A stretch of DNA of 64,000 bases from Dehalococcoidia bacterium (lineage in GTDB: Bacteria > Chloroflexota > Dehalococcoidia > Bin125), in NCBI GenBank assembly GCA_963422755.1, contig OY730488.1; one strand, 5' to 3'. Positions 6,868 through 8,397 of the stretch are shown piece after piece. A program made the position numbers and the translations under genes. Numbering within the stretch: position 1 is the stretch's first letter; each line of letters opens with the position of its first letter. Under the pieces are notes generated by a model. That model saw nothing but the letters and a program-made list of their open reading frames with translations. It ran no database searches and was not told the DNA's origin.

Positions 6868-8397
6868 TCAGTGGCCGCCCGCCTCGTCATGGTGCTCGTC
6901 GTGATCGCCGACGGCGGTCGCCGCAAACACGAGCGTGAGCATGGCGAAGACAAACGCCTGAATCAGGCCCACGAAGACTTCGAGACCGAAGAATACCGTC
7001 GGCACCACAAAAGCGACCAGGAACATCGAGATGAACAGCACCACTTCACCGGCGAAGATATTGCCGAAGAGTCGGAAGGTGAACGAGATCACGCGACCGA
7101 CCTCCGAGACAATCTCAAGTACGCCGACGAAGACGCCCATCGGCCCTTTCACAATCGCGTGCGAACCGACGCCGATGTACTTACCGAAGTTGGCGCCCGC
7201 TCCGATCCCGCGGACGCCGAAGTACTGCACAGCCAAGAAACTCCACAGGGCGATCGCCAGCGGCAGGTTCACGTCTGAAGCGAGCGAGCGGAAGATTGGG
7301 AAAATGTGGCCGACGGTCTGGCCGGCGAATCCTTGCGCTTCGAGCTCCATGACGAAGCCGATGTGCGCCGTGTTGACTGTGGCCAAGACAGCTGCGCCTG
7401 CGCAAGCCGACTCATCCTGCGGAAGGCATATGTGACCCTGATCATCGAGGTAGACAGGCTCTCCAAATGCGTCATAGGAAAAGTCGCGGGGGGTGTCGAA
7501 CAGCGTGCGCGGCGGAATGATCTTGAAGCCGGAGCCACTCAGGATCGGCCCGGTCGCGCGTACCAGCTCAGCGTCCGCCACGGACAGCGGCAGGTTGTAA
7601 AGGATGGCCTCGTGCGCGTGGCGCTCGTCGAGACCAGCCGCTTCCAGCCGCTCCAGCAGGGCTCGCTCGAGCGATGGCCCATCGAGGTCGGACGCCAGCG
7701 GGTGGCGAGCGAACTCGGCGCGAACAGCCAGCTCCTGGTCGCTCAGGCGACCCTCACGCAGCTCGGCGATGTGTTCGTCCGAGTGCTTGTGGACTTCCTT
7801 GAAGCTGTCGTTCTGAGGGTCATTCTTGTCCTTGGCGAAGTGAATCGGCGAGAAGTACGCGTTCTGGAACGTGTCGTTGATCCCGGCAATCTCTGCCACG
7901 CTGAGCGCACGCTCGTCGTGATCCAGCTCCTCCAGCACTGCCTCGACGGAGTACTCCATCTCGTGCAGATAGTGGTAGCGGTAGTTCTCGACCGGGCCGA
8001 GCACGTTGTTCCAGGGAAAGAGCCCAAACCAGTTGCCTGCGAGCAGGAAGATGAAGATCGTGAAGACAAAGGGGAAGAAGATGCGCGCGTTCTTGCCCGC
8101 CACCTGCTCGGCGACTCCAAAGAAGGCTTCGTAGAGCGCCTCGACCAGGTTCTGGAAGCCCGACGGGACCAACGCCGCCTCGACATCGCGGGTCCGTCGC
8201 CAGACGAAGAAGGCGGCGATCGCGAGCAGCACGATCACGACCCAAGCGGAGAGGATCGTGTTGGTGATCTCGTAGGAACCGATCGAGATGACCGGTTCGG
8301 CGGCCAGCGCGATCACGGGCGCGGGCGCGCGCATCAGGAAAAACCCGAGCACGGTGAACGCGATGACGGCGATGACGATCAGGCGCGTCCGACTCAC
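6868..8397 (-). CDS. atpB: Fo ATP synthase a subunit, 509 aa, with a roughly 225-aa insertion in the TM2-TM3 loop and a His-rich C-terminal tail
   Basis: Conserved TM4 carries the essential Arg ([15 protein letters not shown]), and TM5 reads [14 protein letters not shown]. Typical a subunits are about 230-270 aa. Residues about 136-362 (coordinates about 7314-7992) are hydrophilic and acidic. Confidence 0.85.

What the first reader, a model, noticed from the sequence alone, without database searches (positions are those of the whole stretch)
7314..7992. ATP synthase a subunit carries a roughly 225-aa hydrophilic insertion between TM2 and TM3, plus a His-rich C-terminus
The conserved a-subunit helices are all present, including the essential Arg in [11 protein letters not shown]. 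The loop that is normally about 20-30 residues is replaced by an acidic, His-containing soluble domain (...[27 protein letters not shown]...[10 protein letters not shown]...). The protein also ends in [13 protein letters not shown]. The total is 509 aa against about 250 aa typically. It is not an intein (no Cys/Ser...HN boundaries). A large domain at the stator-rotor interface face of Fo could regulate or anchor the enzyme, or bind metal.
Basis: partly seen in the sequence, partly recalled or inferred. Interest (0 to 1): 0.6.

Follow-up and report, generated by a model that had tools for sequence, protein, structure and literature searches.

The report
ATP synthase a-subunit with outer-face domain
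The proton-channel subunit of this bacterium's ATP synthase is twice the usual length because a folded, strongly acidic 227-residue domain of no recognisable fold is inserted on the outer face of the membrane beside the proton entrance, a trait of one clade of uncultured Dehalococcoidia that greatly enlarges a short loop recently described in Chloroflexus.

Summary
ORF 6868..8397 (-) encodes a 509-aa F-type ATP synthase a-subunit inside a complete atp operon. All proton-path residues are present. A 227-aa hydrophilic insert (aa 136-362, window 7312-7992) splits the Pfam match in two.

It is not an artefact, an intein or a recent acquisition. About 105 protein clusters from independent assemblies carry it, down to 43% identity. 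They form one clade of Dehalococcoidia MAGs. dN/dS is 0.18 and GC3 matches the operon.

AlphaFold2 predicts a compact helical bundle plus small sheet (pLDDT 90, pTM 0.88). It has no sequence relative outside a-subunits and no Foldseek match in the PDB.

By homology with the Chloroflexus aurantiacus structure (9itj), the insert sits at the tip of the aH3-aH4 hairpin. That is the outer (periplasmic) face at the mouth of the proton inlet, not the a/c interface. Chloroflexus has a 31-aa, partly disordered insertion at the same site.

Strong acidity is conserved (net -22 to -45). His content is not (1-18). Cys counts are always even.

My best guess, an inference only, is an electrostatic proton-collecting vestibule for the inlet. 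The His/acidic C-tail merely lengthens a common feature. Verdict: a new variant of a known kind, moderately interesting.

The parts
6868..8397 (-). atpB, F-type ATP synthase subunit a, 509 aa including the insert
   Evidence: ORF. PF00119 at 129.9 bits in two stretches. Best PDB match is 9itj_T, the Chloroflexus a-subunit, E 2e-41.
7993..8397 (-). N-terminal membrane part, aa 1-135 (aH1, aH2, aH3). It ends in the invariant [11 protein letters not shown] motif.
   Evidence: Hydropathy peaks at aa ~10-25, 50-60 and 110-120. Aligns to Chloroflexus a residues 6-135. Invariant columns listed.
7312..7992 (-). The inserted domain, aa 136-362 (227 aa). It is acidic, predicted to fold, and lies on the outer face of the membrane.
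   Evidence: Not covered by any a-subunit model. pI 4.6, net -25. AF2 insert-only model has pLDDT 89.9 and pTM 0.88. dN/dS 0.18.
7594..7983 (-). Helical subdomain of the insert (aa ~139-268; six predicted helices). It contains the conserved AVRxEF (224-229) and FNLP (267-270) motifs.
   Evidence: DSSP of the models. Conservation.
7303..7560 (-). Beta/alpha subdomain of the insert and the closing strand (aa ~280-365). It includes the variable loop with C324/C332 (7402-7434) and the conserved TVNTAHIG motif (7357-7380).
   Evidence: The strand motif G.I..GG..IP resembles the mid-length inserts of other Chloroflexota.
6910..7311 (-). C-terminal membrane part, aa 363-496 (aH4, aH5 with R442, aH6). 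Inlet residues N446, E451 and E473 and outlet residues E428, S431, E432 and R435 are all invariant.
   Evidence: Residue mapping onto Chloroflexus R249, N253, E258, E280, E235, S238, E239 and K242.
7072..7074 (-). Codon of the essential arginine R442 in [11 protein letters not shown]
   Evidence: Aligned to Chloroflexus R249.
6871..6909 (-). Cytoplasmic C-terminal tail [13 protein letters not shown] (aa 497-509)
   Evidence: H499 is invariant and H502 is at least 90% conserved. Aligned to the …GHDEEH end of Chloroflexus a.
8394..8696 (-). atpI/atpZ-like gene (PF09527). Its stop overlaps the atpB start.
6516..6767 (-). atpE, c-subunit. The likely ATG start gives 83 aa. There is no Na+-binding signature (Ile in place of the helix-1 Gln, and Ala following the carboxylate Glu).
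   Evidence: PF00137. The sequence was read directly. The Na+ motif is taken from my own knowledge of the Ilyobacter tartaricus c-ring.
275..6436 (-). Rest of the operon: atpF 5927-6436, atpH 5366-5905, atpA 3808-5334, atpG 2855-3730, a HAD-IA hydrolase 2163-2852, atpD 729-2138, atpC 275-820.
   Evidence: Pfam. The delta subunit aligns over its full length to Bacillus PS3 delta.

Best explanation
Shown: the gene encodes the organism's ordinary, functional-looking F-type a-subunit. An independently folding ~25-kDa domain has been inserted into it, exactly at the tip of the aH3-aH4 membrane hairpin. The insertion arose once in a clade of Dehalococcoidia (Chloroflexota) and has been kept under purifying selection. 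Inferred from homology: in the Chloroflexus cryo-EM structure this loop lies on the periplasmic (outer, P) side and contributes the first residues of the proton inlet half-channel. The domain would therefore sit outside the cytoplasmic membrane, directly over the proton entrance. Proposed mechanism (inference, not shown): the one property conserved across the whole family is a very high negative surface charge, with variable His. I propose the domain acts as an electrostatic proton-collecting vestibule. It would raise the local proton concentration and hand protons to the inlet (N131, E473, E451, N446, then the c-ring Glu). This would help an enzyme on an outer membrane face that (from my own knowledge of Dehalococcoidia, not tested) has no outer membrane enclosing it to work at low or fluctuating proton-motive force. 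The domain is a large, structured elaboration of the acidic/His-rich loops found at the same site throughout Chloroflexota. The cytoplasmic His/acidic C-tail is a separate, common feature near the proton outlet.
For: Identity and integrity of the a-subunit. All inlet and outlet residues defined in the Chloroflexus structure are invariant here.

The insert is real and selected:
- About 105 clusters carry it.
- The core-only tree places all long forms in one clade.
- dN/dS is 0.18 against L001, equal to the N-terminal membrane part.
- GC3 is 0.79, like the rest of the operon.

Folded domain: AF2 gives pLDDT 85-96 across the insert in the full-length run and 89.9 with pTM 0.88 for the insert alone, and all five models agree.

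Outer-face location:
- The insertion point corresponds to Chloroflexus C135...C173. The paper places this loop on the periplasmic surface at the inlet start, His170/Asp171.
- K/R-rich loops at aa 67-104 and 395-420 fit the positive-inside rule.
- Cys counts in this linker are even (0, 2 or 4) in 176 of 176 Chloroflexota a-subunits. This is as expected for disulfides in an oxidising compartment.

Conserved acidity:
- Net charge is -22 to -45 (median -33) in 69 of 69 homologs, despite only 29-37% identity in the insert between the window and the distant subclade.
- The insert carries -11 charges per 100 aa. The median of the window's proteins is -3.5, and the most acidic whole protein reaches -9.6.
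- Shorter linkers at the same site in other Chloroflexota are also net acidic: -5.7 per 100 aa for ~70-aa linkers and -8.6 for 80-170-aa linkers.
Against: There is no experimental or structural evidence for the function.
- Model coordinates could not be inspected. I therefore could not verify that the acidic residues are on the surface, or that the domain actually covers the inlet rather than pointing away from it.
- The window's proteome is itself moderately acidic.
- Extracytoplasmic loops of membrane proteins are generally depleted in K/R, so part of the charge bias may be a translocation constraint rather than a function.
- The conserved residues include arginines and hydrophobic or Pro/Gly positions (R140, R226, R250, N268, N342, H345). 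These look like a fold core or a specific binding surface, which an unspecific antenna would not need.
- A 25-kDa folded domain is more than a proton antenna requires.
Confidence: 0.35

Rival explanations
1. Structural or assembly role. The outer-face domain is a scaffold. It might cap the periplasmic face of Fo or the c-ring, brace the stator against the b-subunit N-termini, anchor the enzyme to the cell envelope (S-layer), or mediate oligomerisation of ATP synthases, much as lumenal supernumerary subunits do in mitochondria.
For: The domain is a confidently predicted compact fold with position-specific conserved residues, which is typical of a binding or packing module: R140, R226, R250, N268-L-P, T-x-N-T-x-H-x-G. 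The aH3-aH4 hairpin packs against the peripheral stalk in Chloroflexus. Surface loops tolerate large extra insertions, for example +85 aa in P0060-62, as expected for an exposed scaffold.
Against: No partner was identified. There is no known envelope-binding motif or domain. The b and c subunits of the operon look ordinary. This idea does not explain why extreme acidity is the most conserved global property.
Confidence: 0.25
2. Cation or metal binding, or a sensor role. The acidic and (in this genome) His-containing domain binds Ca2+, Mg2+ or a transition metal, or senses external pH, and so gates or tunes proton entry.
For: There are 42 carboxylates and 12 His in the window's insert. Metal ions at a-subunit half-channels have a precedent: a Zn cap at the cytoplasmic channel of P. 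aeruginosa, and Zn proposed in the P-side channel of Polytomella (PMC12796488). An atpI/Z-like gene annotated as a putative Ca2+/Mg2+ transporter lies directly upstream.
Against: His content varies from 1 to 18 and only H345 is conserved. No EF-hand or other metal-binding family matched. The Cys pair is absent from the distant subclade. atpI-like genes accompany ordinary atp operons as well.
Confidence: 0.12
3. Functionally neutral passenger. The aH3-aH4 tip is a permissive site in Chloroflexota where insertions accumulate. The domain is kept only because unfolding or losing it would damage an essential subunit (constructive neutral evolution).
For: The linker at this site is extremely variable across the phylum: about 69-70, 84-132, 161 and 238-270 aa, and 330 in P0060. 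The insert types look unrelated, and each is confined to its own clade. The Chloroflexus insertion is partly disordered, and reducing its disulfide had no effect on activity.
Against: The domain has been retained with a conserved fold and motifs across a clade that has diverged to 43% identity. dN/dS is 0.18. Acidity increases systematically with insert length. No long-clade member was seen to have lost the insert.
Confidence: 0.2
4. Artefact or selfish element. The insert is a frameshift or assembly chimera, an intein, or an inserted mobile gene.
For: Only the unusual length, and the fact that NCBIfam equivalog cut-offs are missed (128 against 227 bits).
Against: The frame is continuous. The architecture is identical in more than 100 clusters from independent long-read and short-read assemblies. 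There is no Hint, endonuclease or transposase domain and no intein junction residues. Composition is native and selection is purifying.
Confidence: 0.01

Closest known systems
Chloroflexus aurantiacus ATP synthase a-subunit insertion (His142-Thr172 in the aH3-aH4 linker; PDB 9itj-9itx; Zhang et al., PNAS 2025, PMC12002316)
   Same: It is the best PDB homolog (E 2e-41; Foldseek top hits). The insertion point is the same: Chloroflexus C135 aligns with window P135, and the loops rejoin just before the conserved PxFR motif. Both lie on the periplasmic face next to the proton inlet. Both proteins have the extra N-terminal helix and the GHDE..H C-tail. The inlet and outlet residues are the same.
   Different: The Chloroflexus insertion is 31 aa, partly disordered and closed by a Cys135-Cys173 disulfide. 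Here the insert is 227 aa, predicted to be a compact domain with a helical bundle and a sheet, and there are no Cys at its base. The inserted sequences show no detectable similarity. The Chloroflexus enzyme has two a-subunits, two stalks and a shortened delta (157 aa). The window's delta is full length (179 aa), so that architecture cannot be assumed here.
Mid-length aH3-aH4 insertions of other Chloroflexota a-subunits (e.g. Dehalococcoides mccartyi, ~125-aa linker; 'LHGWVM..G..LVPLF' type, 102-140 aa)
   Same: The site is the same, the linkers are net acidic, and there is often a His-rich start (EHxHHEAxxHP). A short strand motif (G-W/P-V/I-x(3)-G-x(2)-V/I-P) is recognisable in both the mid and the long forms.
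   Different: They are half the length or less. They lack the helical subdomain, and several are low-complexity. BLASTP finds no significant similarity across the inserts. They belong to separate clades on the core tree.
C-terminal His/acidic tails of a-subunits: the Zn-coordinating cap of the cytoplasmic channel in Pseudomonas aeruginosa (PMC12796488), and the His-rich C-extension of ice-worm ATP6 (Dunkley et al. 2025, cited therein)
   Same: Each is a short His/Asp/Glu tail at the cytoplasmic (N-side) end of aH6, near the proton outlet. H499 is invariant in this family.
   Different: The four P. aeruginosa ligands (E182, H186, D287, H289) were not mapped here. That paper reports the site as genus-specific. 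No metal was tested here. The tail is only about 6-8 residues longer than in Chloroflexus.
Acinetobacter baumannii a-subunit lineage-specific extensions (PMC8849298)
   Same: This is a precedent that lineage-specific additions to subunit a can reshape the proton entry route or create taxon-specific surfaces.
   Different: Those additions are a 12-residue hydrophobic loop between aH4 and aH5 and an N-terminal insertion. Neither is a folded domain, and neither is at the aH3-aH4 tip.
Proton-collecting antennae of other proton-translocating proteins (clusters of surface carboxylates and histidines at channel entrances of cytochrome c oxidase, bacterial reaction centres and bacteriorhodopsin; my own knowledge)
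   Same: The functional analogy rests on a dense carboxylate (and sometimes His) surface next to a proton uptake site.
   Different: There is no homology. Those antennae are patches on existing subunits, not a dedicated 25-kDa domain. The analogy is an inference and was not tested.

Membership tests
F-type ATP synthase subunit a (Pfam PF00119 / AtpB) | Profile match above the curated threshold | tested here: met
   PF00119 scores 129.9 bits against a cut-off of 33.9, split into two stretches by the insert.
F-type ATP synthase subunit a (Pfam PF00119 / AtpB) | [quoted passage not shown] | tested here: met
   R442, N446, E451, E473, E428, S431, E432 and R435 align to Chloroflexus R249, N253, E258, E280, E235, S238, E239 and K242. 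All are invariant in 69 homologs.
F-type ATP synthase subunit a (Pfam PF00119 / AtpB) | Position in an atp operon next to the c, b, delta, alpha, gamma, beta and epsilon genes | tested here: met
   The gene order is atpI-like, B, E, F, H, A, G, (HAD), D, C on the minus strand.
F-type ATP synthase subunit a (NCBIfam equivalog models) | Score above the equivalog trusted cut-off | tested here: not met
   The best model, NF004481, scores 128 against 227. TIGR01131 scores 95.9 against 102.6. The shortfall arises because the insert splits the match. NCBI nevertheless names relatives 'F0F1 ATP synthase subunit A'.
Chloroflexus-type a-subunit insertion (PMC12002316) | Extra sequence within the aH3-aH4 linker on the periplasmic side | tested here: met
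   The alignment to 9itj_T breaks at Chloroflexus residue 135/136 and resumes at 178. The paper places this loop on the periplasmic surface. The side was inferred by homology, not measured.
Chloroflexus-type a-subunit insertion (PMC12002316) | About 31 residues, partly disordered, clamped by a Cys135-Cys173 disulfide | tested here: not met
   The insert here is 227 aa and predicted to be ordered (pLDDT 90). P135 stands at the position of Cys135. The only Cys residues (324 and 332) lie in an internal variable loop.
Two-a-subunit, two-stalk Chloroflexus architecture | Shortened delta N-domain (~20 residues missing), proposed to permit a delta dimer | tested here: not met
   The window's delta is 179 aa. 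It aligns at 7-176 to residues 6-176 of Bacillus PS3 delta. Only its residues 74-176 align to the 157-aa Chloroflexus delta. Stoichiometry itself cannot be tested with these tools.
Intein | Hint domain; N-terminal Cys/Ser; C-terminal His-Asn followed by Cys/Ser/Thr | tested here: not met
   No Hint or intein family matched in Pfam for any of 36 inserts. The junctions are GP|VENY and QTV|GHIF.
N-ATPase / alternate F1Fo (TIGR03306) or Na+-coupled F-ATPase | altF1_A model above its cut-off; Na+-binding residues in the c-subunit | tested here: not met
   TIGR03306 scores 76.7 against 302. The c-subunit has Ile in place of the helix-1 Gln and Ala after the carboxylate Glu (sequence). The motif is taken from my own knowledge.
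Any described protein domain family or solved fold (for the insert alone) | Significant sequence-profile or structural match | tested here: not met

The most novel reading that the evidence does not exclude
The insert is a previously unseen fold that makes this the first F-type ATP synthase with a large, dedicated domain on the outer (P) side of the membrane built into subunit a. It would form a charged vestibule that captures protons for the inlet channel, or couple the stator to an extracellular partner. It would have evolved as an adaptation of low-energy Dehalococcoidia, which I believe (own knowledge, not tested) lack an outer membrane, and is co-inherited with a HAD phosphatase gene embedded in the atp operon.
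Probability: 0.3. Interest if true: 0.75.

Novelty: new variant of a known kind. Interest (0 to 1): 0.55.

Why it matters
Subunit a is among the most conserved membrane proteins in biology, and its proton half-channels are still being worked out. A natural enzyme carrying a 25-kDa folded domain at the mouth of the inlet channel would be a ready-made experiment. It could show whether local electrostatics and proton collection at the entrance limit ATP synthesis at low proton-motive force.

It also shows that the 'unique' Chloroflexus insertion is one small example of a phylum-wide hot spot. At this site the loops range from about 70 to 330 residues.

In practical terms, the insert breaks NCBIfam equivalog thresholds. 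The domain has no family of its own, so it could be defined as a new one. It would also be a clade-specific surface epitope or marker for these uncultured, apparently sponge- and environment-associated Dehalococcoidia.

Tried and rejected
- **Frameshift or chimera:** rejected. The ORF is intact and the architecture recurs in more than 100 clusters and 14 GTDB species representatives.
- **Intein or mobile element:** rejected.
- **Recent horizontal acquisition:** rejected. GC3 is 0.79, like the operon, and dN/dS is 0.18.
- **Domain captured from another protein:** no evidence. Searches with the insert alone find only a-subunits. The second search, with the A3 profile, scored only 6 proteins because of the word pre-filter, so it adds little.
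- **Fold assignment:**
  - Foldseek against PDB and BFVD gave only noise.
  - Profile searches against PDB sequences and Pfam found no convincing match.
- **Redox regulation by the Cys pair:** rejected as a family trait. The distant subclade has no Cys.
- **His-based metal site in the insert:** unlikely, because His is not conserved.
- **Homology between the long insert and the Dehalococcoides (L018) or Thermoflexaceae (L039) inserts:** BLASTP shows none beyond the membrane parts. Only a short strand motif is shared with one mid-length type.
- **Source genome of the window:** the exact-protein contig look-up returned nothing. Rfam found no RNA gene in the window that could place it. Taxonomy therefore rests on the record titles of the relatives.
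- **Literature:** four searches of the held library found no description of a long a-subunit in Dehalococcoidia.
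Full report
**1. What is there**

The minus-strand ORF 6868..8397 encodes 509 aa.
- Its GTG start overlaps the TGA stop of an upstream atpI/atpZ-like gene (PF09527). A GAGGAGG Shine-Dalgarno sequence lies 7 nt upstream.
- Downstream on the same strand lie atpE, atpF, atpH, atpA, atpG, a HAD-family hydrolase, atpD and atpC.
- Pfam ATP-synt_A matches at 129.9 bits (cut-off 33.9), but in two pieces. 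PDB a-subunits align only to aa ~3-136 and 363-503.
It is 227 aa, with pI 4.6, 42 acidic against 17 basic residues, 12 His, 2 Cys and no membrane-like segment.
- [11 protein letters not shown] with R442 and the C-terminal [13 protein letters not shown] are present as described.

**2. It is real coding sequence under selection**

- A search of 5.8 billion proteins returned about 105 clusters of 500-600 aa that cover 100% of the query and keep the insert. Identity goes down to 43%.
- A scan of one genome per GTDB species found the long form in 14 species representatives. All are titled Dehalococcoidia, Chloroflexota or Chloroflexi MAGs, and several are closed long-read chromosomes.
- A tree built only from the membrane core puts every long form (linker 238-270 aa) in a single clade with two subclades.
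- Against the closest relative (L001), the insert has dN/dS = 0.18. This equals the N-terminal membrane part (0.18). The C-terminal part gives 0.05.
- GC3 of the insert (0.79) matches the operon (0.80-0.84).
- There is no Hint or intein domain and there are no intein junction residues.

Frameshift, chimera, intein and recent transfer are therefore excluded.

**3. Where the insert sits**

The best solved homolog is the a-subunit of Chloroflexus aurantiacus (9itj_T, E 2e-41; Foldseek). The paper describing that structure (PMC12002316) reports the following:
- a 'unique insertion' His142-Thr172 in the aH3-aH4 linker;
- the insertion lies on the periplasmic surface, is partly disordered and is clamped by a Cys135-Cys173 disulfide;
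- the proton inlet half-channel begins at His170/Asp171 of this loop and runs via His31, Ser131, Glu258 and Glu280 to Asn253;
- the aH3-aH4 hairpin contacts the b-subunits, whereas aH5-aH6 faces the c-ring.

The window protein leaves the alignment at exactly Chloroflexus residue 135 (window P135). It rejoins five residues after Cys173, at window G363.

The channel residues map as follows, and all are invariant in 69 homologs:

| Role | Window | Chloroflexus |
|---|---|---|
| Inlet | N131 | S131 |
| Essential Arg | R442 | R249 |
| Inlet | N446 | N253 |
| Inlet | E451 | E258 |
| Inlet | E473 | E280 |
| Outlet | E428, S431, E432, R435 | E235, S238, E239, K242 |

By homology, the domain therefore projects from the outer face of the membrane at the mouth of the proton inlet. 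Two independent observations fit this:
- The K/R-rich loops (aa 67-104 and 395-420) are the ones predicted to be cytoplasmic.
- The number of Cys in this linker is even in all 176 Chloroflexota a-subunits examined, 93 of which contain Cys. This is the pattern expected for disulfides outside the cytoplasm.

**4. What the insert is**

- AlphaFold2 with a 69-sequence alignment gives pLDDT 85-96 over most of the insert. This is higher than for the membrane part.
- The insert alone (aa 130-368, 36 sequences) gives pLDDT 89.9 and pTM 0.88, and all five models agree.
- The predicted architecture, in order: an entering strand (133-138); six helices (139-159, 167-179, 199-214, 220-231, 240-253, 258-268); a small sheet (280-286, 290-293, 305-309); a variable loop carrying C324/C332; a helix (341-354); and a closing strand (361-365) next to the entering one. 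This is the classic geometry of a domain inserted at a hairpin tip.
- Conserved positions are R140, E148, N174, F177, P184-I185, I210, V225-R226, F229, P233, R250, N268-L-P, G290, D305, E313, N342-T-x-H345-x-G347.
- No relative was found:
  - phmmer of the insert against 1.84 billion representatives gave 9 hits, all a-subunits or their fragments.
  - A profile search of PDB sequences gave nothing below E = 1. Pfam gave only scattered weak hits in at most 3 of 36 members.
  - Foldseek against the PDB and BFVD gave only noise, with best E values of 2.4 and 0.4 and TM below 0.25.

**5. The phylum-wide context**

Across 80 Chloroflexota loci, I measured the linker between the conserved NWFGLFP and DxNxPLA motifs.
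- It is about 69-70 aa in some lineages, 84-132 aa in many (including about 126 aa in a MAG titled Dehalococcoides mccartyi), 161 aa in one, and 238-270 aa in the long clade. It reaches 330 aa in P0060. For comparison, the same stretch is about 62 aa in Chloroflexus and about 20 aa in M. tuberculosis (my count from the alignments).
- The insert types look unrelated and each is confined to its own clade. One mid-length type does share a short strand motif with the long form.
- All types are net acidic, and more so the longer they are: -5.7, -8.6 and -12.6 charges per 100 aa.
- In the long clade, net charge is -22 to -45 in 69 of 69 members. His ranges from 1 to 18, and Cys is 0, 2 or 4.
- The window's own proteins have a median of -3.5 per 100 aa, and the most acidic whole protein reaches -9.6. 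The insert has -11.

**6. Mechanism**

Shown: an intact proton path, a selected and apparently folded domain, an insertion point homologous to a periplasmic inlet loop, and conserved extreme acidity.

Inferred: the domain is an electrostatic proton-collecting vestibule for the inlet. It would be an enlarged, structured version of the acidic/His loops that other Chloroflexota have at this site. It would be useful where the outer face of the membrane is not enclosed by an outer membrane and the energy budget is low (my own knowledge of Dehalococcoidia; not tested).

I give this mechanism about 0.35. The alternatives are:
- a structural or anchoring scaffold (0.25), which fits the position-specific conserved residues better;
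- a neutral passenger at a permissive site (0.2);
- cation binding or sensing (0.12).

None of these can be separated without coordinates or experiments. The window's delta subunit has a full-length N-domain. The feature the Chloroflexus authors link to two stalks and two a-subunits is therefore absent, and a conventional single-a enzyme is the default expectation.

**7. The C-terminal tail**

[13 protein letters not shown] follows aH6 on the cytoplasmic side.
- H499 is invariant and H502 is nearly so.
- Chloroflexus ends …GHDEEH and M. tuberculosis ends …EEEHH.
- In P. aeruginosa, the C-tail together with a Zn ion caps the cytoplasmic channel.

The tail is a modest lengthening of a common feature. 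It is unrelated to the insert.

**8. Novelty and verdict**

Searches of the held literature found only the Chloroflexus paper for an insertion at this site. Nothing describes a large domain there. Database names for relatives are simply 'F0F1 ATP synthase subunit A'.

I classify this as a new variant of a known kind. The gene family and the insertion site are known. The size, the predicted fold and the orphan status of the domain are not. Interest is 0.55. It would surprise ATP-synthase specialists and offers a testable handle on proton entry. However, the function is unproven and the organisms are uncultured.

Noticed in passing
window 2163-2852 (-); also L001, L003-L014 and L039 at about 11.2-12.4 kb: A HAD-IA hydrolase gene lies between atpG and atpD inside the atp operon. 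It matches Pfam HAD_2. It resembles beta-phosphoglucomutase and sugar-phosphatase families but scores below all equivalog cut-offs. It is present at the same place in every long-a-subunit locus that extends that far (41-79% identity) and in a Thermoflexaceae MAG. It is absent from six short- or mid-form loci checked (L016, L018, L028, L038, L050, L063).
   Followed up: partly
window 5366-5905 (-): The delta subunit is 179 aa and aligns over its full length with Bacillus PS3 delta. Only its C-terminal half aligns with the 157-aa Chloroflexus delta. The statement in PMC12002316 that Chloroflexi as a phylum share a shortened delta N-domain (and hence perhaps two stalks) does not hold for this Dehalococcoidia genome.
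   Followed up: partly
P0060-P0062 (595-601 aa), alignment A1 columns ~283-372: Three relatives carry a further ~85-aa Ala/Glu/Leu-rich repetitive segment (…AAELLEAARLYSETAELLSEA…). It is nested inside the insert, between the fifth and sixth predicted helices. This is an insertion within the insertion.
   Followed up: no
P0013, P0025, P0068 and relatives (532-544 aa), alignment A1 columns ~165-185: One subgroup has an extra ~20-28-aa loop bracketed by two additional Cys (…VVCELQGE…KVVCDG…) near the start of the insert. This raises the Cys count from 2 to 4. Across 176 Chloroflexota a-subunits, the Cys count in this linker is never odd.
   Followed up: partly
window 8925-9446 (-); same position in long and short loci: A bifunctional-nuclease-domain gene (PF02577) lies immediately upstream of the atpI-like gene. 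This neighbourhood is conserved in most Chloroflexota loci examined, whatever the length of the a-subunit.
   Followed up: no
window 6868-8397 (-): Because the insert splits the match, the protein falls below every NCBIfam equivalog cut-off for subunit a (best 128 against 227 bits; TIGR01131 95.9 against 102.6). Automated naming of this clade's atpB may therefore rest on weaker evidence.
   Followed up: yes
window 6516-6953 (-): The mechanical ORF for the c-subunit runs from a TTG at 6953 and overlaps the end of atpB. The conserved c-subunit domain starts at residue 78 of that ORF. An in-frame ATG at 6767 gives a normal 83-aa protein with a 100-nt gap after atpB.
   Followed up: partly
window 1-64000: Rfam gathering-threshold search found no RNA family at all in the 64-kb window: no tRNA, rRNA or riboswitch.
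   Followed up: no
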